A DNA stretch of 64,000 nt from Octopus vulgaris (lineage: Eukaryota), in assembly GCA_951406725.2 (NCBI GenBank), contig OX597832.1, forward strand, positions 67,890,001 to 67,954,000. Reading direction: 5' to 3'. How positions within the stretch are numbered: position 1 is the stretch's first letter; each line of letters starts with the position of its first letter. This document shows, in pieces, positions 1,411 to 59,022 of this stretch. A program made the position numbers and the translations under genes. The notes beneath the pieces were generated by a model. It had not been told where the DNA came from. It ran no database searches and saw only the letters and a list, made by a program, of their open reading frames with translations.

Positions 1411-2319
1411 TCGCCTAAATTTTGAAAATTTTGCTTGCGGTTCAATTTTAAGTTTTTTTCTTTCCCGTTGATGCATTTTCACTTTTATTCTTTCTTTCCA
1501 TAAATTAAATTTTAATTCTCTGAACATAATTAAAGTTACATCGCGTAAAATAGATGCTGTATCTTTGTCTGTCTTACAGTCTGTCTCTCACTCTCTCTCT
1601 ATCTTATATATATAATATATATATTTATATATATAAAACTGAGATTGTGTGTCTGTCTGTGTGTTTCCCTAAAACTTGAGAACTACACAACCAATTCCAT
1701 TCAAATTTTACACATGCCTTACTTACGGTCCATGTAGTTTCATGGGCAAAAAATGTTCAACTTCTTGCCTAGAGCGAGCCCATAGCAATATCATATCTTC
1801 TCCACTATTTCAGTATTACGTGTTAAAAGTGAAACAAAAACGTTTCTCTATTTTATGTCAGATACTTTCACTTTAACAATAAAAATAATAATAACAATTG
1901 AATTATATGTAGTAAGTAATAATTAAAATCAAACTAAAGTAACATAACAAAAGTAAAAATAGCAATTGGTATAACATTGCATCAATGATTTGAACTTGAA
2001 TAAGTAGTTTCACATGAATGGGAATAAATTAAAAATAAAATTAGCGTGCAGAAATGGAATAGTCCAGATGGATAATAAAAAATTAAATTAAAGAAAAGAC
2101 TATTGTCTATAAAGTATACAATGTAGAGAAAGGTCGCGTTTTTTCGGCTCCGTGTTTTTTTTTTTCTCGGCTCCTGAAAATTCGGTAAAAAGGAACAAGG
2201 GGCGTTGTTGTTGTTGTGGAAATTCTGAACGGCGTTGACGCGGTTTCGCGTTTCGCTCGTTCAGCGCGTTACACTTTTTCTGTTTTGGCGGCCGTTTTCG
2301 GTCTGTCAGACAGAAGGAA

Positions 2320-3680
2320 ATGGACAACCCCTACCTGATGGGAGATACGGCTGCAGTTTTTGAGTCTTTAACAGACTTGTCTACGTCTGAGGAGGAGCTA
2401 GAAATAGCAGTGAGGAAAATGGATCAGAAGCTGGGTTATACCTATGCCGGTGTAACCAAGAAGGCGGAAGAGAAAGGGGTCGACATGGCCAAGTTGCCAA
2501 GTTACCAGAAATACATGAAAAAGGAAAGCGGTGAGGTGGAACTATCACCGACACCCAGGAGAAAAGAATGGTATGATAAGAGGACCATTGTTTACAGGGT
2601 GTGCGCAAACGAAAGGAAGAAGGTAGAAGTTGTATCCATGGAATGGATAGAGGAAGCCCTGCGAAGAACTGAGGAGGAAATAAATTTTCTGACTCGAGGA
2701 TCCAAGTACGGGACCGTAGTTGTGCACTTTAAAAGTGAATCTGCAGCGAGGAAGATGGCAGCGAAGGCGGTGAAGTCGGAAAAGGTAACACTGTTACCTA
2801 CGTATTTAAACAGGAGGATTACACGAATAAGGGTGGAGGGAGTGCCACCAAACGTGGAGGCAGAATGGATTGTGGCGGCTGTGATCAGCGGCCACGAGGA
2901 CGAAGTGGATATTCTCCATGCCTCGGTTAAGTCCGAGGGCTGGAGAGGCGTAACAGTGGAGCTGAACGTACAGGCAGAGACCGAGGTACTGGTGGACCTG
3001 ACGGAAAGCATCAGACTGGGAGAAGTGATCATGAGAGTGTGGGTGGAGGGCAGGGCTCCACGTTGTTACAAGTGTGGCCTGAGGGGTCACATAAGAGCCT
3101 TCTGCCCTCCCCCAGGGAAAGAAATGGATCCCGAACCAGAGAGAGAGAAGCAGAAACCAGAGGAGAAGGAAACAGAGGAAGAGAATACACAGAAATGGAA
3201 GGAAGCTGGAAGTAAGAGGAAGAGAAGAATATGTGGAAAAAAAGAAAATAATATGGAACTCCAATCTACCCCAAAACCTCCCACACCCTCTGAGTCCCAC
3301 CCTATCCATGCAGACATTGAACCCACCCGCTCCCCCCCAACAAGAAAACAAAAGAAAAAAAGAATACACACACACAAGAGATTGAAATCGAACCCAGGCC
3401 GTACATTTGTACTATGACTGAACAGAAAGAAGTTAAAAGTCTAATGGAAGAGTATAAATGGTATGATGTTGGAGAGACTAGGTATGCTGTGATTGAAAAG
3501 AACATAGGTGAGTTTATGGGGAGGTGTGAAAGGGAGAATTGGGAGGTGAAAGATATAAGAATGAGCGATGAATTCGTGGAAAATATGGATGAGTATTTCG
3601 GAGTAAGAATGGATATGGAATTTATTCGTATTGACAAAGAACATTCAAGTGACTATGAAAAACAAAGGACAGGTAAGTGA
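2320..3680 (+). CDS. CCHC zinc-knuckle protein, LINE ORF1p/Gag-like, copy 1 (one -1 frameshift in the A-run near 3355-3361)
   Basis: ORFs 2320-3417 and 3414-3680. Motif CYKCGLRGHIRAFC (CX2CX4HX4C) follows RRM-like segments (TVVVHFKSESAARK; TRIRVEGVPPNVEAEWI). Adding one A joins the two ORFs. Confidence 0.75.
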
Positions 3681-3820
3681 TGCTGACGGACGGGGCCGTT
3701 GGTATCGCTTTCATTTTATCATTTTTTCGTTTAACAATTCATGTTCATAAAGTTTAATTATAATGTTCTATGTCCCCATGTTTTGTTATGTCCGCCATTC
3801 TTCGTAGCCCCTTAGTGGGT

Positions 3821-3826
3821 AATAAA
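3821..3826 (+). promoter_or_regulatory. Polyadenylation signal AATAAA of unit 1 (equivalents at 5574, 7308, 9057, 10731)
   Basis: Conserved AATAAA about 140 nt after each stop codon, including the diverged unit 5. Confidence 0.65.
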
Positions 3827-4015
3827 GAAATACGCGTTTTTTTCGGCTCCGTGTTTTTTTTTTCGGCTCCTGAAAATTCGGTAAAAAAGAACAAAAAGCG
3901 TTGTTGTTGTTGTGGAAATTCTGAACGGCGTTGACGCGGTTTCGCGTTTCGCTCGTTCGGCGCGTTACACTTTTTCTGTTTTGGCGGCCGTTTTCGGTCT
4001 GTCAGGCGGAGGGAG

Positions 4016-5433
4016 GTGGACTATGAGTCGCTGACAGACTTGTCCACGACGGATGAGGAACTGGAACAGGCAATTGCAGTGAAGCTGATGGAGGAAAAGG
4101 CTGGAGTTTTTGAGTCTTTATCAGACTTGCCTATGTCTGAGAAGGAGCTAGAAATGGCAGCAAGGAAATTGGAAGACAAGCTGAGTTATACCTATGCCGG
4201 TGTAACCAAGAAGGCGGAAGAGAAAGGGGTCGACATGGCCAAGTTGCCAAGTTACCAGAAATACATGAAAAGGAAAGCGGTGAGGTGGAACTATCACCGA
4301 CACCCAGGAGAAAAGAATGGTATGATAAGAGGACCATTGTTTACAGGGTGTGCGCAAACGAAAGGAAGAGGGTAGAAGTTGTATCCATGGAATGGATAGA
4401 GGAAGCCCTGCGAAGAACTGAGGAGGAAATAAATTTTCTGACTCGAGGATCCAAGTACGGGACCGTAGTTGTGCACTTTAAAAGTGAATCGGCAGCGAGG
4501 AAGATGGCAGCGAAGGCGGTGAAGTCGGAAAAGGTAACACTGTTACCTACGTATTTAAACAGGAGGATTACACGAATAAGGGTGGAGGGAGTGCCACCAA
4601 ACGTGGAGGCAGAATGGATTGTGGCGGCTGTGATCAGCGGCCACGAGGACGAAGTGGATATTCTCCATGCCTCGGTTAAGTCCGAGGGCTGGAGAGGCGT
4701 AACAGTGGAGCTGAACGTACAGGCAGAGACCGAGGTACTGGTGGACCTGACGGAAAGCATCAGACTGGGAGAAGTGATCATGAGAGTGTGGGTGGAGGGC
4801 AGGGCTCCACGTTGTTACAAGTGTGGCCTGAGGGGTCACATAAGAGCCTTCTGCCCTCCCCCAGGGAAAGAAATGGATCCCGAACCAGAGAGAGAGAAGC
4901 AGAAACCAGAGGAGAAGGAAACAGAGGAAGAGAATACACAGAAATGGAAGGAAGCTGGAAGTAAGAGGAAGAGAAGAATATGTGGAAAAAAAGAAAATAA
5001 TATGGAACTCCAATCTACCCCAAAACCTCCCACACCCTCTGAGTCCCACCCTATCCATGCAGACATTGAACCCACCCGCTCCCCCCCAACAAGAAAACAA
5101 AAGAAAAAAAAGAATACACACACACAAGAGATTGAAATCGAACCCAGGCCGTACATTTGTACTATGACTGAACAGAGGGAAGTTAAAAGTCTAATGGAAG
5201 AGTATAAACGGTATGATGTTGGAGAGACTAGGTATGCTGTGATTGAAAAAAAGAACATAGGTGAGTTTATGGGGAGGTGTGAAAGGGAGAATTGGGAGGT
5301 GAAAGATATAAGAATGAGCGATGAATTCGTGGAAAATATGAATGAGTATTTCGGAGTAAGAATGGATATGGAATTTATTCGTATTGGCAAAGAACATTCA
5401 AGTGACTATGAAAAACAAAGGACAGGTAAGTGA
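4016..5433 (+). CDS. CCHC zinc-knuckle ORF1p-like protein, copy 2 (GTG at the start position; -1 frameshift in the A-run near 4268-4271; C-terminal frame continuous)
   Basis: ORFs 4016-4375 and 4285-5433. The second reads through to ...KQRTGK* and so defines the full C-terminus. Confidence 0.75.
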
Positions 5434-5748
5434 TGCTGACGGACGGGGCCGTTGGTATCGCTTTCATTTTATCATTTTTTCGTTTAACACTTCATGTTCA
5501 TATAGTTTAATTATAATGTTCTATGTCCCCATGTTTTGTTATGTCCGCCATTCTTCGTAGCCCCTTAGTGGGTAATAAAGAAATACGTTTTTTTTTCGGC
5601 TCCTGAAAATTCGGTAAAAAAGAACAAAAAGCGTTGTTGTTGTTGTGGAAATTCTGAACGGCGTTGACGCGGTTTCGCGTTTCGCTCGTTCAGCGCGTTA
5701 CACTTTTTCTGTTTTGGCGGCCGTTTTCGGTCTGTCAGACAGAAGGAA

Positions 5749-7166
5749 ATGGACTATGAGTCTCTAACAGACTTGTCCACGACGGATGAGGAACTGGAAC
5801 AGGCAATTGCAGTGAAGCTGATGGAGGAAAAGGCTGGAGTTTTCGAGTCTTTATCAGACTTGCCTACGTCTGAGAAGGAGCTAGAAATGGCAGCAAGGAA
5901 ATTGGAAGACAAGCTGAGTTATACCTATGCCGGTGTAACCAAGAAGGCGGAAGAGAAAGGGGTCGACATGGCCAAGTTGCCAAGTTACCAGAAATACATG
6001 AAAAAGGAAAGCGGTGAGGTGGAACTATCACCGACACCCAGGAGAAAAGAATGGTATGATAAGAGGACCATTGTTTACAGGGTGTGCGCAAACGAAAGGA
6101 AGAGGGTAGAAGTTGTATCCATGGAATGGATAGAGGAAGCCCTGCGAAGAACTGAGGAGGAAATAAATTTTCTGACTCGAGGATCCAAGTACGGGACCGT
6201 AGTTGTGCACTTTAAAAGTGAATCTGCAGCGAGGAAGATGGCAGCGAAGGCGGTGAAGTCGGAAAAGGTAACACTGTTACCTACGTATTTAAACAGGAGG
6301 ATTACACGAATAAGGGTGGAGGGAGTGCCACCAAACGTGGAGGCAGAATGGATTGTGGCGGCTGTGATCAGCGGCCACGAGGACGAAGTGGATATTCTCC
6401 ATGCCTCGGTTAAGTCCGAGGGCTGGAGAGGCGTAACAGTGGAGCTGAACGTACAGGCAGAGACCGAGGTACTGGTGGACCTGACGGAAAGCATCAGACT
6501 GGGAGAAGTGATCATGAGAGTGTGGGTGGAGGGCAGGGCTCCACGTTGTTACAAGTGTGGCCTGAGGGGTCACATAAGAGCCTTCTGCCCTCCCCCAGGG
6601 AAAGAAATGGATCCCGAACCAGAGAGAGAGAAGCAGAAACCAGAGGAGAAGGAAACAGAGGAAGAGAATACACAGAAATGGAAGGAAGCTGGAAGTAAGA
6701 GGAAGAGAAGAATATGTGGAAAAAAAGAAAATAATATGGAACTCCAATCTACCCCAAAACCTCCCACACCCTCTGAGTCCCACCCTATCCATGCAGACAT
6801 TGAACCCACCCGCTCCCCCCAACAAGAAAACAAAAGAAAAAAAAGAATACACACACACAAGAGATTGAAATCGAACCCAGGCCGTACATTTGTACTATGA
6901 CTGAACAGAAAGAAGTTAAAAGTCTAATGGAAGAGTATAAATGGTATGATGTTGGAGAGACTAGGTATGCTGTGATTGAAAAGAAGAACATAGGTGAGTT
7001 TATGGGGAGGTGTGAAAGGGAGAATTGGGAGGTGAAAGATATAAGAATGAGCGATGAATTCGTGGAAAATATGGATGAGTATTTCGGAGTAAGAATGGAT
7101 ATGGAATTTATTCGTATTGACAAAGAACATTCAAGTGACTATGAAAAACAAAGGACAGGTAAGTGA
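5749..7166 (+). CDS. CCHC zinc-knuckle ORF1p-like protein, copy 3 (-1 frameshift in the C-run near 6815-6820)
   Basis: ORFs 5749-6900 and 6897-7166. C6 replaces the C7 run seen in copies 1 and 2. Confidence 0.75.
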
Positions 7167-7498
7167 TGCTGACGGACGGGGCCGTTGGTATCGCTTTCAT
7201 TTTATCATTTTTTTCGTTTAACAATTCATGTTCATAAAGTTTAATTATAATGTTCTATGTCCCCATGTTTTGTTATGTCCGCCATTCTTCGTAGCCCCTT
7301 AGTGGGTAATAAAGAAATACGTTTTTTTCGGCTCCGTGTTTTTTTTCGGCTCCTGAAAATTCGGTAAAAAAGAACAAAAAGCGTTGTTGTTGTTGTGGAA
7401 ATTCTGAACGGCGTTGACGCGGTTTCGCGTTTCGCTCGTTCAGCGCGTTACACTTTTTCTGTTTTGGCGGCCGTTTTCGGTCTGTCAGACAGAGGGAA

Positions 7499-8915
7499 AT
7501 GGATTATGAGTCTCTAACAGACTTGTCCACGACAGATGAGGAACTGGAACAGGCAATTGCAATGAAGCTGATGGAAGAAAAGGCTGGAGTTTTCGAGTCT
7601 TTATCAGACTTGCCTACGTCTGAGAAGGAGCTAGAAATGGCAGCAAGGGAATTGGAAGAGAAGCTGGGTTATACCTATGCCGGTGTAACCAAGAAGGCGG
7701 AAGAGAAAGGGGTCGACATGGCCAAGTTGCCAAGTTACCAGAAATACATGAAAAAGGAAAGCGGTGAGGTGGAACTATCACCGACACCCAGGAGAAAAGA
7801 ATGGTATGATAAGAGGACCATTGTTTACAGGGTGTTCGCAAACGAAAGGAAGAGGGTAGAAGTTGTAACCATGGAATGGATAGAGGAAGCCCTGCGAAGA
7901 ACTGAGGAGGAAATAAATTTTCTGACTCGAGGATCCAAGTACGGGACTGTAGTTGTGCACTTTAAAAGTGAATCTGCAGCGAGGAAGATGGCAGCGAAGG
8001 CGGTGAAGTCGGAAAAGGTAACACTGTTACCTACGTATTTAAACAGGAGGATTACACGAATAAGGGTGGAGGGAGTGCCACCAAACGTGGAGGCAGAATG
8101 GATTGTGGCGGCTGTGATCAGCGGCCACGAGGACGAAGTGGATATTCTCCATGCCTCGGTTAAGTCCGAGGGCTGGAGAGGCGTAACAGTGGAGCTGAAC
8201 GTACAGGCAGAGACCGAGGTTCTGGTGGACCTGACGGAAAGCATCAGACTGGGAGAAGTGATCATGAGAGTGTGGGTGGAGGGCAGGGCTCCACGTTGTT
8301 ACAAGTGTGGCCTGAGGGGTCACATAAGAGCCTTCTGCCCTCCCCCAGGGAAAGAAATGGATCCCGAACCAGAGAGAGAGAAGCAGAAACCAGAGGAGAA
8401 GGAAACAGAGGAAGAGAATACACAGAAATGGAAGGAAGCTGGAAGTAAGAGGAAGAGAAGAATATGTGGAAAAAAAGAAAATAATATGGAACTCCAATCT
8501 ACCCCAAAACCTCCCACACCCTCTGAGTCCCACCCTATCCATGCAGACATTGAACCCACCCGCTCCCCCCAACAAGAAAACAAAAGAAAAAAAGAATACA
8601 CACACACAAGAGATTGAAATCGAACCCAGGCCGTACATTTGTACTATGACTGAACAGAGGGAAGTTAAAAGTCTAATGGAAGAGTATAAACGGTATGATG
8701 TTGGAGAGACTAGGTATGCTGTGATTGAAAAAAAGAACATAGGTGAGTTTATGGGGAGGTGTGAAAGGGAGAATTGGGAGGTGAAAGATATAAGAATGAG
8801 CGATGAATTCGTGGAAAATATGAATGAGTATTTCGGAGTAAGAATGGATATGGAATTTATTCGTATTGGCAAAGAACATTCAAGTGACTATGAAAAACAA
8901 AGGACAGGTAAGTGA
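7499..8915 (+). CDS. CCHC zinc-knuckle ORF1p-like protein, copy 4 (two single-base homopolymer deletions near 8565-8593)
   Basis: ORF 7499-8617 plus the 3' part of 8466-8915. C6 and A7 runs versus C7 and A8 in copy 2. Confidence 0.75.
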
Positions 8916-9232
8916 TGCTGACGGACGGGGCCGTTGGTATCGCTTTCATTTTATCATTTTTTTCGTTTAACACTTCATGTTCATATAGTTTAATTATAAT
9001 GTTCTATGTCCCCATGTTTTGTTATGTCCGCCATTCTTCGTAGCCCCTTAGTGGGTAATAAAGAAATAAGCGTTTTTTTGCGCTCTGTAAAATTCGGTTA
9101 AAAAAGAAAAAACAACAAAAAGTGAATTGTGGTTGCGGAATTGGAACGTCGGTTGGTGCGGTTTCGCGTCGCACTGGTTCTGTGCGTCGCACGTTTTCTG
9201 TTCGGGAGGCCGTTTTTCGGTCTGAGGCGACT

Positions 9233-10595
9233 ATGAGCCGCCTCTACCAAACGGATGAGATGGAAGGGAGAAATTTCTCTGAAAATTCGTCGACATCTGA
9301 GGAGGAGTTGGCGGTGAAAAAAATGGAAAGCACCTATGCAGGTATAACGAAGAAGTCAACAGAAAAGAGATAGACCTGGCTAAGTTGACGGACTTCCAGG
9401 AGTTCATGAAGGAGGAGGAGAACGGAGAGGTTGAGCTGTTGCCTCTAGCAGGGCGCGGAGACTGGTTCCATCGTAGAACCATTAAATATAAAGTATTTAT
9501 GAATGGAGGTAGAAAAATGGAAGTGATTAACATGGAAGCAATTGAAGAGGCTTTCAAACGGACAGGAGAAGAAATTGTGTACATGACAAAAGGATTAGAA
9601 TATGGAACCATAACGGTACAATTTAAAAGTGAGAAAGCAGCCAGGAATATAGCAGCCAAGGTGGTGAGTACAGAAAAGTTTTACTTGTTCCCCTCGTATT
9701 TGAATAGAAGGACCACCAGAATTAGGGTGGAAGGAATACCTCCACACCTAGAGGGCGAATTAATAACGGCTGCGGTTATCAAAGGAAATGAAGATAAAGT
9801 GGACATCCTCCACGCCATTATGAAATATGAAGGCGTTAGAGGTGCCACACTAGTAATGAACATACAGACGGAGGCGGAAGTTATAGAAAAGCTTACGGAC
9901 AGTATAAAAACTGGAAATATTATTATGAGAGTGTAGGTGGAGGGTAGGGCGCCCAGGTGCTACAAGTGTGGCATGAGGGGTCACATAAGAGCCTACTGCC
10001 CTCCACCACTAAAGGAAAAAGAAAAGGAAATCGTCGCGGAAGCCCCAAAAGAGGAAGAAACCAAAGAGAACCAAAGGGAAAAAGAAACGACAGAAGAAGA
10101 GGAGATGCAACAAGAGTGGGAAGAAGGAAGAAAAAGAGAAAAAGAAAGAAAAAGAAAAACTGTGCGAAGCCCCAACCCACCCCAACACCACCCGCACCCT
10201 CTGAATCCCACCCTTCCCCTGCAGACAGTGAACCCACCCGCTCCCCTCCAACAAGAAAACAAAAGAAAAATAACAATACAGACAGACAAGAGTTTGAAAA
10301 CGAACCCAGGCCGAACATTTATATTGTGACTGAACAGAAAGAGGTTGAAAGGGTAATGGAGGAGTATGAATGGTATGAAATGGATGGGACCAGATATGCA
10401 GTGCTGGAAAAGAAGAATATAGATGAGTTTGTGTTGAGGTGTGAAAGGGAGAATTGGGAGGTGAAAGATACAAGAATGAGCGATGAATTCGTGGAATATA
10501 TGGAGGACAGTTTCGGAGTAAGAATGGATATGGATGGTCTTCGTATTGGGAATGAACATTCAGGTGACAGTGAAAACAAAAGGACAGGTAAGTGA
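9233..10595 (+). pseudogene. Diverged paralogue of the zinc-knuckle ORF1p-like gene, copy 5
   Basis: CYKCGMRGHIRAYC is retained. In-frame TAG at 9934-9936 replaces Trp of RVWVEG. Frameshifts near 9370 and near 10160. Same 3' UTR and AATAAA (10731-10736). Confidence 0.85.
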
Positions 10596-10744
10596 TGCTG
10601 GCGGAGGGGGCCGTTAGCATCGCTTTCATATTATCATTTTTTCATTTTCATTTGCTCATAAATTTAATCATATTGTTCTATGTCCCCCATGTTTTGTTAT
10701 GTCCGCCATTCTTCGTAGCCCCTGGTGGGTAATAAAGAAATAAC

Positions 10745-11040
10745 ATGGAGGCAAGCACCTTCGAAAAGTGTCTTGGTGCGACTATGAAAGGTATCTAATC
10801 AGAGGCGGTCAATTCGCCACAATAGAAGCAAGGTTCGAGTCAACGGAGCGTGCAAGGGAGTACTCGACTCGAACTTGCAAAATGGAGATATTTTATTTTC
10901 CCCTTTATATCTGGGACGTAGGATGTCCCGGAAAAGAAATTTTAAATGCCCCCAGAAGTAGCGGTAGGCTGGATTGTAGCCACACTTCTATACAAGAGGG
11001 AGGATAAGATACAATTGATCGAAATTACAAGAGACGGGCT
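10745..11040 (+). pseudogene. Sixth, highly diverged fragment of the same ORF1p-like family
   Basis: Across frames it reads YLIRGGQFATIEARFESTERAREY / ILFSPLYLGRRMSR / MPPEVAVGWIVATLLYKREDKIQLI, matching FLTRGSKYGTVVVHFKSESAARKM / TLLPTYLNRRITR / VPPNVEAEWIVAAVISGHEDEVDIL. Confidence 0.75.
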
Positions 11041-12049
11041 AACAATTCCAGTCTGTTATATATTTTGAGTATTGTTATCACTAGCGATATCAAGATATAA
11101 CTTTGTATTTTGTATTTTATGTGTAGATGTATATATATAGATGTACATGTAATATGTACACATATATATTTACACACATATACATGCACTAGCACTATGA
11201 CCCGGCAACGACGGGTCTTTAATGCTAGTATATATATTAATATAAATAAATATATATATATATATATATATATCTTTTAATTACGTGCATTTACCGGAAA
11301 TGACTTGATAATAAGTCACTAACCTATGAAATTAGTACGAAATTCTTTAGTTGCGGAAGCTGGAGATGAGAATTTAAATTCTGATGAAAACGTAGATTAA
11401 ATAGATGCAGACGTGATTATAGCTAGACTATGCTTTTGATATGCATGTATGTATGTGTGTATGTACGTATGTATGTATGTATGCATATCATTCTGCTTTT
11501 ATTTTTAAAATTCTTCACTTACAATGATCCAATCTCTATTCCAGGACATTGCCCTGTCATTGGAATTTAGACAAAAGTTTCTTGTAACCATGTATCCATA
11601 TGAGTGTGTATATGATGTATTTATGTGCGTGCCTCTATGCATATTTGTACTTCACCATATCCTTTCTGGTAAAGTGAAGTCCAAATTCATAAATTTGGTG
11701 ACATATCCAAGTGCCGCAGTAATTGCTGGTATGAATATGATGCTACAGCTCACATAAATCAAATTCGGATTTCACATTACTTCAGTTATACGTATTTCTC
11801 ACTTGTAACCTTTGGCTTGCGCACCTGTCCGGCAACTGACATCCATTCTCAGCTCGCTATCATTGTACCTCGTCTTTGTTATTTTTGCCTTTCAACTGAG
11901 AAATGATGACACCTTACATTCTTATTCTTCATACTACAGAAAATATCGTCACCCGCAAACACACACAAACACACACATAGCAATATTAAATCTCTGAGCG
12001 AAAAGTAAACAGTACCAGTAAATCGTGAAGTATATTTGCCACCTAAATG

Positions 12050-42859: not shown

Positions 42860-44610
42860 ATTTAGTTAGTTAGTTAGTTAATTTTTTGGCTCAAAAAGCA
42901 AAAAGCAAGGCCATGTAGGGGGACATGGAGTTATGTACAGGGTGGTGTTCATGTAAAGAGTACAGGCCACTTGAAGTCAAGGGAGACTTTGAACCGAGCG
43001 GTCGTCGGCATCTTCACCATCTCGTCTGGCAGCTTATTCCACGGATCCGCAACCCGGGGGGGAGAAAGCCCCTCTCCTTCGATTGAGATGAAATCGTCGC
43101 AGATAGATCTTTTCGGAATGACCCCGCGGCCGATGCTCTGGAGCAGGAGGGAAGAACAGCTCTTTCGAGAGGTTACACTTTCCACTTATGATGTTGTGAG
43201 CAAGAATGAGATCTCCACGGCGTCGTCGTTTTTCTAGAGAATAAAAGTCGAGCGTCTTCAGTCTTTCTTCGTAAGACAAATTCTAGAGACCAAGAATCAT
43301 GCGGGTAGCCAGCTTCTGGACTCTTTCGAGATGATGTATGTCTTTGAGGAGATAAGGAGAAGAGGCTTGAATCCCGTACTCCAATATGTGTCTCACCAGC
43401 GTGACATAGAGCGGTAGGAATATGGCTGCTGTGAGCATTCCGAATGACTTGTTGGCAGCATGGACGCGTGCTTTGTTGGCAGCATGGACGCACTGGGCCG
43501 AAGGCGAAAAGGAGGAATCCACCAAGATACCCAGATCCTTTACCTGATCGGTCCTCTCCAGCAGCAGACGACCCGGCTCGAAATCAAGTTGAGTTGCAGG
43601 AGGAGAGCCAACAGGCAGATGACAGCACTTTGACACGTTCAGACACAGGTCCCATTCGTTAGACCATCTCCAAATTTGGTGGAGGCATCGACGAAGATCC
43701 TCTATATCACCGCGAGGAGTGACCAGTTTGACATCGTCGACAAATAGAAGGGTGTGTTGCGTGAGGTCGTCGGGCAAGTCATTTATGAAGACTAAGAACA
43801 ATAAGGGCCCAAGCACTGAACTTTGAGGCACGCCACTGCTCGCACTGGAGACGTTGGACCGCGAACCATTAACTTGGACTTGGAAGGAGCGATCTGAGAG
43901 GAAGGCACCAACCCATCGTACAATATCCGGATGGAAACTATATGCTTGAAGCTTGACAAGTAATAGGCGGTGGTTTACCGTGTCAAAAGCTTTGGCAAAG
44001 TCCAATAAAACGATGTCAACAGCATCACTATCATCGAGGATGCGCGTCACCAATTCTTCCATTACCAGTAAGTTGGCCAAGCATGATCTCTTCGGCACGA
44101 AGCCGTGTTGGGAATCAGAGATAGAGGCTGTGTTTTGGAGGTGGCGCATCATACTTTTCTTAAGGATGGTTTCGAACATCTTGCTGATTATTGATGTAAG
44201 GGAAACCGGTCGGTAGTTAAGCGGGTCTTCGCGGCTCCCTTTCTTGAAAATTGGGCGGATTATCGCTGTTCTCCAGTCCGCAAGTATAACACCCGTCGCC
44301 AATGACATATTGAATAGACATGTTAAGGGCTCGCAGATGACCGGAGCCAACGCTTTGATAACCCGTGGATGTATGCCGTCAGGGCCGTAACCCTTGTTGA
44401 CATCGAGGCCTTGAATAACGCGTTCGACTTCGTCCCGCGTGATGACCAATCAAAACATTGGAGGTACCGATCTATCAAATGGAGGGGGTTCACGACCATC
44501 ATCTTGTTTGAAAATAGTTGAAAAAGCCTCGGCAAATAATTGACTCTGTTGATAAGGGTCCTCAATCGATACGCCTGTTGAGTCTACCAACGTTGCAATT
44601 TCATTTAAAT
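42860..44610 (-). mobile_element. 5'-truncated CR1-clade LINE (RT domain to 3' end)
   Basis: ORF 43283-44449 has GPDGIHP, NYRPVSLTS, QHGF, LDFAKAFDTV, GVPQSSVLGPLLF and FVDD (catalytic motif altered). It continues after a frameshift as SYEERLKTLDFYSLEKRRRRGDLI. 3' (TAAC)n tail at 42862-42880. Confidence 0.93.
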
Positions 44611-56636: not shown

Positions 56637-57467
56637 AGCCAAATCGGGACAGATATTTTTCACGAGGCATTCCTCTTGCTACCTCGGCAATATCTGACCT
56701 AAAATTTTCAAATCGTCGCACTCGCGCCAAATTTATCGGCAGCAAATAAACCACCGATTCCGTTACGGAACTAACCAGAAAATTCATAATTAATCAATAT
56801 AGGGTGGCAAAAAAATTTTGTAGAATTCTTTTGCCACCAGCGGCCTAGTAGGAAAAAATTAAATAGTCATAAACCATTTTTACGTTCAACATCACAATCA
56901 AGGAACGGCCATAATAGGCCATTCACCCACTAGAAATAACAGCCAAAAGCTTTAACCGCAAAATAACATTAATACCGTAAACCAGGAGAAAATTGAAAAA
57001 CTTTTACCCTGTAATTTCTTAGACGATGCACCGTTTCATCTACCGTTTAATGGTAAACTAACCTGATTAAATTAAATCAAGCCAATCCACCATAGGGTAA
57101 AAGTTTTTCAATTTTCTCCTGGTTTACGGTATTAATGTTATTTTGCGGTTAAAGCTTTTGGCTGTTATTTCTAGTGGGTGAATGGCCTATTATGGCCGTT
57201 CCTTGATTGTGATGTTGAACGTAAAAATGGTTTATGACTATTTAATTTTTTCCTACTAGGCCGCTGGTGGCAAAAGAATTCTACAAATTTTTTTTGCCAC
57301 CCTATATTGATTAATTATGAATTTTCTGGTTAGTTCCGTAACGGAATCGGTGGTTTATTTGCTGCCGATAAATTTGGCGCGAGTGCGACGATTTGAAAAT
57401 TTTAGGTCAGATATTGCCGAGGTAGCAAGAGGAATGCCTCGTGAAAAATATCTGTCCCGATTTGGCT

Positions 57468-57574
57468 ATTTCTTACTGATGAGTCTAAGGGCCTATGGTG
57501 GATTGGCTTGATTTAATTTAATCAGGTTAGTTTACCATTAAACGGTAGATTAAACGGTGCATCGTCTAAGAAAT
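57468..57574 (+). ncRNA. Type I hammerhead ribozyme with core mutation (GAAA to TAAA at 57551)
   Basis: Same motif as the other units but reading tagatTAAAcggtgc. Confidence 0.85.
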
Positions 57575-57951
57575 TACAGGGTAAAAGTTTTTCAATTTTC
57601 TCCTGGTTTACGGTATTAATGTTATTTTGCGGTTAAAGCTTTTGGCTGTTATTTCTAGTGGGTGAATGGCCTATTATGGCCGTTCCTTGATTGTGATGTT
57701 GAACGTAAAAATGGTTTATGACTATTTAATTTTTTCCTACTAGGCCGCTGGTGGCAAAAGAATTCTACAAAATTTTTTTGCCACCCTATATTGATTAATT
57801 ATGAATTTTCTGGTTAGTTCCGTAACGGAATCGGTGGTTTATTTGCTGCCGATAAATTTGGCGCGAGTGCGACGATTTGAAAATTTTAGGTCAGATATTG
57901 CCGAGGTAGCAAGAGGAATGCCTCGTGAAAAATATCTGTCCCGATTTGGCT

Positions 57952-58058
57952 ATTTCTTACTGATGAGTCTAAGGGCCTATGGTGGATTGGCTTGATTTAA
58001 TTTAATCAGGTTAGTTTACCATTAAACGGTAGATGAAACGGTGCATCGTCTAAGAAAT
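57952..58058 (+). ncRNA. Type I hammerhead ribozyme, intact core; predicted cleavage after C58050
   Basis: Stem I atttctta/taagaaat, CTGATGA 57960-66, stem II gtcta/tagat with a long inserted hairpin, GAAA 58035-38, quasi-palindromic stem III acggtgcatcgt, GTC triplet. Confidence 0.92.
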
Positions 58059-58435
58059 TACAGGGTAAAAGTTTTTCAATTTTCTCCTGGTTTACGGTAT
58101 TAATGTTATTTTGCGGTTAAAGTTTTTGGCTGTTATTTCTAGTGGGTGAATGGCCTATTATGGCCGTTCCTTGATTGTGATGTTGAACGTAAAAATGGTT
58201 TATGACTATTTAATTTTTTCCTACTAGGCCGCTGGTGGCAAAAGAATTCTACAAAATTTTTTTGCCACCCTATATTGATTAATTATGAATTTTCTGGTTA
58301 GTTCCGTAACGGAATCGGTGGTTTATTTGCTGCCGATAAATTTGGCGCGAGTGCGACGATTTGAAAATTTTAGGTCAGATATTGCCGAGGTAGCAAGAGG
58401 AATGCCTCGTGAAAAATATCTGTCCCGATTTGGCT

Positions 58436-58542
58436 ATTTCTTACTGATGAGTCTAAGGGCCTATGGTGGATTGGCTTGATTTAATTTAATCAGGTTAGTT
58501 TACCATTAAACGGTAGATGAAACGGTGCATCGTCTAAGAAAT
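58436..58542 (+). ncRNA. Type I hammerhead ribozyme, intact core; predicted cleavage after C58534
   Basis: Identical to the 57952-58058 motif, 484 bp downstream. Confidence 0.92.
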
Positions 58543-59022
58543 TACAGGGTAAAAGTTTTTCAATTTTCTCCTGGTTTACGGTATTAATGTTATTTTGCGG
58601 TTAAAGCTTTTGGCTGTTATTTCTAGTGGGTGAATGGCCTATTATGGCCGTTCCTTGATTGTGATATATATATATATATATATAGGAAAGGTCAGCACTA
58701 CTTCCCCTTCAAGTATGTTATTGGTCTCCTGTATTTTCATTCTCTTGATTGTCTCCTCCACATTCATGTGTACTTCTTTCGCGATTCACTTTTGAAATAC
58801 CAAGTTGATGATTCAATGTTTTTTCCACACACGTGTGCGTACGCGCATATACACACATACGCCTGCATTGTGTGTATGTGTGTGTGTATGCGAAAAACTA
58901 TGCAGTCAGTTACTTTTCGCTTTGACATATATAGAATTTTGTTGGCGGTTTCCTGTATTTTTAGTCGATCAACGATTGATCAATAAAATTTAACTATGCG
59001 GATGTAGGTATGTAATGTGAGG

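What the first reader, a model, noticed from the sequence alone, without database searches (positions are those of the whole stretch)
2135..10742. Tandem array of stand-alone LINE-ORF1/Gag-like zinc-knuckle genes with no reverse transcriptase
Seen: five abutting units, each a CpG-rich, T-tract leader of about 160-185 nt, an intronless ORF (RRM-like region, a single CCHC knuckle, a charged/Pro linker and a conserved ~90-aa C-terminal domain), and a ~150-nt 3' UTR ending in AATAAAgaaata. There is no ORF2, poly(A) tail or spacer between units. Established: RRM+CCHC is the ORF1p architecture of several non-LTR clades (e.g. L1/Tx1), ORF1-only non-autonomous elements exist (HAL1), and ZCCHC3 is a cellular protein with similar architecture. 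Inference: either an ORF1-only retroelement that inserts at its own end, or a domesticated, amplified RNA-binding gene family, possibly for transposon or virus defence.
Basis: partly seen in the sequence, partly recalled or inferred. Interest (0 to 1): 0.8.

Follow-up and report, generated by a model that had tools for sequence, protein, structure and literature searches.

The report
Half-LINE train inside an octopus Helitron
Five head-to-tail copies of a jumping gene that encodes only a predicted RNA-binding protein sit at one fixed spot inside another small transposon, an arrangement repeated at dozens of places in this octopus genome, where they likely stack up one at a time using enzymes likely borrowed from full-length relatives, and some copies carry likely RNA-editing marks frozen into DNA.

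Summary
The unit is a mobile ORF1-only LINE derivative, not a gene family. It occurs at 66 or more loci, 49 of them with Helitron arms. Each young window unit's nearest relative lies on another chromosome (0.07-0.4% apart) while the arms differ 1.5-9%. Off-target copies show 5' truncation and 12-18 nt duplications. 7 of 145 copies carry clustered sense-strand A>G changes with an ADAR-like context. ORF1 folds as two RRMs plus CCHC and is under purifying selection (dN/dS 0.12-0.25). Two full-length APE-RT LINE families share its 3' tail: one uses the same site (16 of 19 loci), the other has the closest tail but is dispersed (1 of 19). The site lies within an old ORF1 scrap carried by the Helitron (1,327 exact 24-mer hits). 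Each behaviour has precedent (HAL1, HeT-A, Tx1-Mar); I did not find the combination in print. This scan already reported the same system from other DNA of this genome.

The parts
1602..2131 (+). Left arm of a non-autonomous Helitron-like host repeat; starts TC after an A; its last ~55 nt belong to an old ORF1 scrap and hold a TATAAAG at 2108-2114
   Evidence: a 24-mer of the arm has 1,327 exact matches
2134..3832 (+). Unit 1, young ORF1-only family F0 (short 454-aa type); ORF-homologous span 2320-3680, frame broken near 3354; four A>G changes in the leader (2192, 2199-2201)
   Evidence: nearest copy on C10 at 0.35%
3833..5585 (+). Unit 2, family F0 (472-aa type); span 4016-5433, GTG at the start position, frame broken near 4267; seven A>G changes in 3959-4033 (one shared with U4)
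   Evidence: nearest copy on C2 at 0.07%
5586..7319 (+). Unit 3, family F0; span 5749-7166, frame broken near 6814
   Evidence: nearest copy on C10 at 0.07%
7320..9068 (+). Unit 4, family F0; span 7499-8915, two breaks near 8564 and 8586
   Evidence: nearest copy on C8 at 0.42%
9069..10742 (+). Unit 5, sister ORF1-only family F1 (young itself: 20 copies, mean distance 1.2%); span 9233-10595, private TAG and two breaks; its tail abuts the fixed site ACATGGAGG
10743..11037 (+). Right part of the ancient LINE ORF1 scrap carried by the host repeat; starts at the insertion site
11038..11228 (+). Right end of the host repeat: GACCCG/CGGGTC hairpin (11199-11217), then CTAG (11225-11228) followed by T
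   Evidence: 85% match over 52 nt to the end of a Rep-helicase Helitron locus L224

Best explanation
The units are copies of two ORF1-only families that sit head to tail at one fixed site inside a Helitron-type repeat, and they likely got there one after another as RNA copies, inserted by the endonuclease and reverse transcriptase likely borrowed from full-length L1/Tx1-type LINEs that share their 3' tail. Steps. (1) Shown: a Helitron-type repeat carrying a scrap of an ancient LINE ORF1 has over 1,300 copies, and the site GAAC|ACATGG lies in that scrap. (2) Shown: full-length family A5 sits at this site, often with a 12-nt repeat on both sides that leaves the site intact upstream. (3) Shown: F1 and one F0 subfamily end at the same site to within a base or two; at F-type 5' junctions about 11 nt of the site are missing. 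(4) Inferred: this loss closes the site to the A5 group, and later F0/F2/F3 and A10 copies land at or just before the head of the previous unit, so arrays grow at their 5' end; the observed order fits in 24 of 26 mixed arrays. (5) Inferred: each RNA makes its own ORF1p (two RRMs plus a zinc knuckle), which coats it in cis, and the shared ~40-nt tail recruits ORF2p in trans for target-primed reverse transcription. (6) Inferred: ADAR edits some RNAs before they are copied back into DNA. Which LINE supplies ORF2p, A5 or A10 or both, is open.
For: 117 matches in 66 clusters on 24 contigs with the tail searches, lower bounds. Arms at 49 of 66 loci, and at 46 of the 53 loci holding the tail. 20 of 20 unselected host copies lack young units and show the empty site or a variant. 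95 of 127 units in multi-unit arrays have their nearest neighbour at another locus. Nine near-identical terminal units differ by 0.1% on average while their arms differ by 4.0% (left) and 4.9% (right); F1 1.2% against 4.2% and 7.1%. Shared 12-18 nt flanking repeats at 5 of the 17 loci with neither arm nor site, several 5'-truncated (a microsatellite case and two 7-9 nt matches not counted). 7 of 145 units have 17-31 A>G and 0-2 T>C, none the reverse; 5' neighbour G in 9 of 103 against 162 of 496, p 1.6e-7; host arms symmetric. dN/dS F0-F1 0.12 core, 0.25 whole; F6-F7 0.20. A5 ORF2 has endonuclease, RT and zf-RVT domains, 86 matches, many with the full 1132-aa frame, arms at 16 of 19 loci. A10 tail 33 of 37 identical to the F0 tail, 16-18 nt duplications.
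Against: No transposition or cleavage was tested. Among F0 units the 5'-most are not measurably younger than the 3'-most (37 arrays, p 0.62), so 5' growth rests on family order alone. 32 of 127 units have their nearest neighbour in the same array (mainly C2b, C8a, C4c), which fits local amplification there. Adjacent pairs conserved between loci are somewhat in excess (4 against 1.2, p 0.04; 9 against 3.7, p 0.013; 1 against 0.5, p 0.38), so some units may travel as read-through dimers. The two copies of the 12-nt A5 repeat differ at some loci (L132, L144, L149), so it is not always a plain duplication. Core dS is near saturation (pS 0.72), so 0.12 is rough, and the C-terminal domain gives 0.76. 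No full-length element with an F0-like ORF1 was seen (36-38% to A5 and A10).
Confidence: 0.85

Rival explanations
1. Arrays form mainly in single events: the reverse transcriptase jumps from one RNA to the next, or copies read-through RNAs that span several units, rather than by separate insertions.
For: The same odd junctions recur at unrelated loci, for example a head truncated at the same base in 7 loci and a junction derived from another target repeat inside C2b. Modest excess of conserved adjacent pairs. No age gradient among F0 units.
Against: Only 4 conserved pair-of-pairs at 0.5% among 90 adjacent pairs. The near-fixed family order, 24 of 26, is not expected from random jumping. Arm fragments inside arrays end at several positions, as separate nicks would give. 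This rival still makes the unit an ORF1-only retroelement.
Confidence: 0.08
2. The Helitron captured the units and spread and multiplied them by rolling-circle copying, or the array is a local tandem duplication.
For: Arrays lie inside Helitron-type ends, and Rep-helicase Helitrons with long open frames exist (150 scored matches). A few arrays hold near-identical neighbours.
Against: Units are 10-40 times closer between loci than their arms. Window units are closer to other chromosomes than to each other (0.07-0.4% against 0.6-1.4% over the core). Copies exist outside Helitrons with duplications. Sense-strand A>G clusters point to an RNA step.
Confidence: 0.04
3. A domesticated, amplified RNA-binding gene family (ZCCHC3- or L1TD1-like) serving host defence.
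For: Purifying selection; two RRMs plus CCHC; a ZCCHC3-domain cluster at 0.90 in the Atlas, a lead only; the ORF region is covered in three runs guessed to be RNA.
Against: Young dispersed copies, 44 full frames against 145 core units, truncations, duplications, a LINE-type tail and residence in a transposon. Selection on ORF1 is expected for any element that needs it to move.
Confidence: 0.03

Closest known systems
HAL1 (half-L1), HeT-A and Ag-Sponge: 'ORF1-present' non-autonomous LINEs (PMC5786205 passage; PMC5753468 passages)
   Same: Encodes only ORF1p, keeps a LINE-type 3' end and must borrow ORF2p.
   Different: Derived from a zinc-knuckle L1/Tx1-type lineage in a mollusc; no poly(A) tail in the window; concentrated at one target; at least six families (F0, F1, F2, F3, F6, F7) with core ORF1 identities down to about 30%.
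Tx1L in Tx1D (Xenopus); Tx1-Mar and SINEU-3 in Mariner-N4_AMi; Tx1-9_AMi in Harbingers (PMC4494074 passages and section 15)
   Same: A LINE and its dependants target a non-autonomous DNA transposon; tandem copies by sequential insertion; a SINE shares the tail.
   Different: The target is a Helitron, and within it a captured scrap of LINE ORF1. The dependants are protein-coding. Trains of up to 16 units were seen (C2b).
Drosophila telomeric HeT-A/TART/TAHRE arrays (PMC13534243 abstract and outline only)
   Same: Head-to-tail arrays mixing two-ORF and one-ORF elements; repeated loss of one gene.
   Different: Interstitial, at 66 or more loci; the partner is L1-like, not Jockey; no known host function.
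ZCCHC3 (search listing only)
   Same: Tandem RRM-like domains plus CCHC architecture (lead at 0.90).
   Different: No ZCCHC3-domain Pfam hit at E 0.1; one knuckle; mobile and multi-copy, not a fixed gene.

Membership tests
ORF1-present non-autonomous LINE (HAL1/HeT-A/Ag-Sponge type) | Encodes ORF1p only, no ORF2 | tested here: met
   44 full F0 frames end within 160 nt of the tail; 1.7-kb units at all loci mapped
ORF1-present non-autonomous LINE (HAL1/HeT-A/Ag-Sponge type) | 3' end shared with an autonomous LINE | tested here: met
   33 of 37 nt with A10; same GCCCC..GTGGGTAATAA motif in A5
ORF1-present non-autonomous LINE (HAL1/HeT-A/Ag-Sponge type) | Retrotransposition marks (5' truncation, target duplication) | tested here: met
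   12-18 nt shared flanks at 5 of 17 off-target loci, three of them truncated (L042, L049, L066)
ORF1-present non-autonomous LINE (HAL1/HeT-A/Ag-Sponge type) | Origin by internal deletion of an identifiable parent | tested here: inconclusive
   ORF1 core only 36-38% to A5 and A10; the F0/F1/F2 clade holds no two-ORF member among 13 rows
HAL1 proper | Derivative of mammalian L1 (poly(A) tail recalled) | tested here: not met
   Octopus element, RRM-RRM-CCHC ORF1, tail ends GAAATA without poly(A)
Tx1 clade (for partners A5 and A10) | APE endonuclease + RT + C-terminal zinc motif, L1-like | tested here: met
   A5: Exo_endo_phos, RVT_1, zf-RVT above cut-offs; best solved relative human L1 ORF2p, E 7.6e-58. 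A10 judged by eye from its 1132-aa frame
Tx1 clade (for partners A5 and A10) | RT phylogeny groups with named Tx1 elements | not testable with these tools
   No named Tx1 among the 120 listed homologues; the named ones are fish proteins at 30-32%. 'Tx1' is my recalled label
Tx1 clade (for partners A5 and A10) | Target preference (over 20% of flanks in one repeat, criterion of PMC4494074) | tested here: met
   A5 16 of 19; F0 46 of 53. A10 1 of 19 for this target, so not met for A10
Helitron (host repeat) | 5' TC after A; 3' hairpin then CTAG before T (recalled hallmarks) | tested here: met
   32 5' ends and 42 3' ends printed, most of this form
Helitron (host repeat) | An autonomous Rep-helicase element with matching end | tested here: met
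   1 of 20 fetched Rep-helicase loci (L224) matches the 3' end at 85% over 52 nt; 7 others end in a similar hairpin + CTAGT
HeT-A-type telomeric element | Located at chromosome ends | tested here: not met
   Arrays are interstitial, e.g. C2 at 138.8 of 215.6 Mb
Domesticated ORF1 gene (ZCCHC3/L1TD1 type) | Fixed, low-copy, no mobility marks | tested here: not met
ADAR-edited retrocopies | Clustered sense-strand A>G, depleted 5' G, no T>C counterpart | tested here: met
   7 of 145 units; controls 0 and 0; p 1.6e-7 for context
ADAR-edited retrocopies | The same sites edited in RNA against matched DNA; changes confirmed in accurate genomic reads | not testable with these tools
   Only contigs of unmatched runs were available

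The most novel reading that the evidence does not exclude
The ORF1-only families keep their protein because it chooses the landing site in cis. F0 ORF1p would steer a borrowed, otherwise promiscuous ORF2p (A10: closest tail, 1 of 19 loci in the Helitron) to the head of earlier copies (F0: 46 of 53), as HeT-A Gag is recalled to do at telomeres. A Helitron that spread a scrap of LINE ORF1 would thus have seeded over a thousand interstitial 'pseudo-telomere' docks with a fixed succession of tenants, and the octopus ADAR system would be writing lasting A>G diversity into them.
Probability: 0.2. Interest if true: 0.8.

Novelty: new variant of a known kind. Interest (0 to 1): 0.6.

Why it matters
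It explains why a non-autonomous LINE derivative keeps a selected ORF1 over long times, and gives a natural test bed: a strict full-length element (A5), a loose one (A10) and several ORF1-only families meet at one site, so swapping ORF1s and tails can show whether ORF1p or the endonuclease sets the target. Site-specific LINEs interest gene-delivery work. Edited copies fixed in the genome give a dated record of germline ADAR activity on retrotransposon RNA in an animal known for heavy editing (recalled). Practically, such arrays produce false gene models (P0001, and likely P0003).

Tried and rejected
Single-sequence fold was poor (pLDDT 39.9) and was replaced by the alignment-based model (73.7). 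The ~90-aa C-terminal domain has no assignment: no usable Atlas hit; the structure searches were dominated by the RRMs and it was not folded alone, so this shows nothing about its fold. Pfam gave only sub-threshold hits for F0. A pattern search for a parent of the ORF1 scrap outside the Helitron gave 7 hits whose matched letters read like host variants; their loci were not examined further. Expression: no RNA holder listed on record. Age gradient within F0 arrays: none. ORF1 trees resolve families but not their deep order; long branches meet. In one search the label F1 lumps F1 and F2, and exception L131 is a mislabelled truncated A5. Literature searches (open-licence PMC and bioRxiv only) listed no paper whose title or abstract start describes ORF1-only elements stacking in a Helitron or ADAR-marked genomic LINE copies in octopus. 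Repbase reports, subscription papers and the repeat library of PMC13282606 (on Zenodo, not seen; supplement not opened) may hold these families.
Full report
Observation. The window holds five abutting units from 2134 to 10742, each ending in AATAAAGAAATA. U1-U4 are 97.5-98.9% identical and U5 is about 72% identical to them. Leaders are 163-186 nt and 3' UTRs 147-153 nt. There is no ORF2 or poly(A). Across the family 129 of 209 non-triplet indels lie in or beside runs of five or more, so some may be long-read errors; that is inference. Database proteins matching the unit are named Octopus vulgaris by their sources.

The unit is a dispersed young family. A protein search of G000 gave 117 matches, many 96-100% identical with a full frame. 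With two tail searches these fall into 66 clusters on 24 contigs, a lower bound. I fetched all 66 (the window is one). An intact natural copy encodes 472 aa. With a 142-row alignment it folds at mean pLDDT 73.7, residues 80-260 above 90. Foldseek's top hits are tandem-RRM proteins such as Sxl, IMP3 and U2AF65 (E about 5e-5 to 1e-4); VIA-align's best is La RRM (Z 9.2, rmsd 2.5, 80 aligned). A single CCHC follows, then a disordered linker and an unassigned C-terminal domain. Relatives occur in O. bimaculoides, O. sinensis and Argonauta (8 of 10 looked-up proteins carried names).

The host. Both flanks recur at other arrays. A 24-mer of the left flank has 1,327 exact matches, control 0. Twenty unselected copies from C1 held no young unit: 16 read arm-AAGATTTGAAC-AC(A/C)TGG-arm or a close variant, 3 lack the downstream scrap, and 1 holds an older ORF1-only family. 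The repeat starts A|TCTTTATAT and ends in a hairpin plus CTAG|T. One of 20 fetched Rep-helicase loci ends with an 85% match over 52 nt. It is therefore a non-autonomous Helitron by recalled hallmarks. Longer host copies carry the 5' region and N-terminal half of a decayed ORF1 (23-37% to F0; translation), and the insertion site lies inside that scrap. Arms were found at 49 of 66 loci, and at 46 of the 53 holding the tail.

Partners. Arrays also contain other ORF1-only families (F1 = U5, F2, F3, F6, F7) and full-length two-ORF elements. Family A5 has endonuclease, RT and zf-RVT domains, human L1 ORF2p as best solved relative, and 86 scored matches, many identical with the 1132-aa frame. Of 19 A5 loci chosen from that list, 16 have host arms; single insertions carry ACATGGAGGAAA or a near variant on both sides. 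A second full-length family, A10, has the tail closest to F0 (33 of 37 nt) and 16-18 nt duplications, but only 1 of 19 loci lies in the host (p 2e-10 against F0). The A10 loci were picked by 3'-end DNA and include many truncated copies, so that contrast is not fully matched. An abundant SINE-like repeat has the same tail motif. 'Tx1' is my recalled label for these L1-like elements; no named Tx1 was available for a tree.

How the copies moved. For 95 of 127 F0 units in multi-unit arrays the nearest relative is at another locus. Window units are 0.07-0.4% from copies on C10, C2, C10 and C8 but 0.6-1.4% from each other over the core, while the arms of those loci differ by 1.5-8.8%. Nine terminal units 0.1% apart sit in arms 4-5% apart. 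This rules out local duplication and Helitron transport as the main route. Five of the 17 loci with neither arm nor site show 12-18 nt shared flanks, three with 5' truncation. Seven of 145 units carry 17-31 clustered A>G with 0-2 T>C; none shows the reverse; G is depleted 5' of the changed A (9 of 103 against 162 of 496); the arms are strand-symmetric. Three of the seven share positions, so independent events are fewer. U1 and U2 show small A>G clusters in their leaders. This is the expected mark of ADAR on an RNA intermediate (established knowledge, recalled); assembly artefacts are not excluded.

Selection. Using intact copies from other loci, F0 against F1 gives dN/dS 0.12 in the RRM-CCHC core (dS near saturation), 0.25 overall and 0.76 in the C-terminal domain, where dS is only 0.24, which suggests a later exchange of 3' parts. 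F6 against F7 gives 0.20. Since the sampled members of these clades are ORF1-only, the protein has been kept without ORF2.

Order and growth. In 24 of 26 arrays with both groups, F0/F1/F2/F3/A10 lie wholly 5' of A5/F6/F7; the exceptions are a non-Helitron array and a mislabelled fragment. 22 tails read GAAATA|ACAT and 20 GAAATC|ACAT, against 19 AAAACA|ACAT for the A5 type. F-type 5' junctions nearly always read GTAGAG-A-run-GGTCG, lacking about 11 nt of the site. A G in place of the first A occurs at 15 of 42 such junctions against 1 of 24 others (p 0.006), hinting that the RNA's 5' end contributes to the joint; I cannot say how. I infer 5'-ward growth with conversion of the site. Against this: no age gradient among F0 units (p 0.62), 32 units with a same-array nearest neighbour, and a modest excess of conserved dimers.

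Comparison with what is known. ORF1-present non-autonomous LINEs are known: HeT-A, HAL1, Ag-Sponge (PMC5786205, passage; PMC5753468, passages). Tx1 elements that target non-autonomous DNA transposons, with tandem sequential insertions of a dependent SINE, are known (PMC4494074, passages and section 15). Head-to-tail arrays with repeated gene loss are known at fly telomeres (PMC13534243, abstract and outline). A recent O. vulgaris repeat annotation lists 13 recently active L1-Tx1 and 8 Helitron families but does not describe this arrangement in parts 1-2 of 3 that I read (PMC13282606; its library was not seen). PMC8869645 (passages) added only background. Nine searches listed nothing on the combination. 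Earlier notes of this scan describe the same system from other pieces of this genome; I had recorded my reading before seeing them, and they are not independent evidence.

Verdict. A new variant of a known kind: ORF1-only L1/Tx1-type retroelements stacked in a Helitron-borne target, confidence 0.85. The domesticated-gene reading is unlikely (0.03). The open and testable point is whether the retained ORF1p chooses the site (0.2). Interest 0.6.

Noticed in passing
window 43283-44308 (-): 341-aa RT fragment (RVT_1, E 6.6e-30) of an unrelated LINE.
   Followed up: no
window 57094-58665: 484-nt tandem repeat, 3.2 copies at 99%; resembles none of the parts above.
   Followed up: no
window 3668-3680 and equivalent in each unit: The ORF ends in ACAG-GTAAGT-GA, a canonical splice donor overlapping the stop. 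Gene model P0001 strings together three C-terminal domains, and P0003 appends one to a 550-aa host-like protein; probably annotation artefacts, possibly real splicing.
   Followed up: no
L073, L077, L034, L192, L194 and junctions in C2b (L095-L098): A second recurrent target repeat (GCCTTACTGCTTTCTGC-TGGATTTTACC) takes F0, A5-like and A10 insertions, and its junction sequence reappears inside a Helitron array on another chromosome.
   Followed up: partly
L088-L089 (C7), L141, L129: An abundant SINE-like repeat ends in the same tail motif as the LINEs; one F0 array sits inside such a repeat.
   Followed up: partly
L117 near 2493-2510 (oriented): A further full-length LINE family inserted at a second site of the long host form, in the scrap's 5' region.
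   Followed up: no
L039:4541-5944 (-): An older F0-like copy whose protein shows many K>R, E>G and Y>C changes, as heavy A>G editing would give, yet keeps an open 468-aa frame.
   Followed up: partly
L117, L126, L140, L121: Host Helitrons in tandem or with doubled 3' ends, as rolling-circle read-through would give.
   Followed up: no
L033, L076: Internal inversions within F0 copies, reminiscent of twin priming in L1 (recalled).
   Followed up: no
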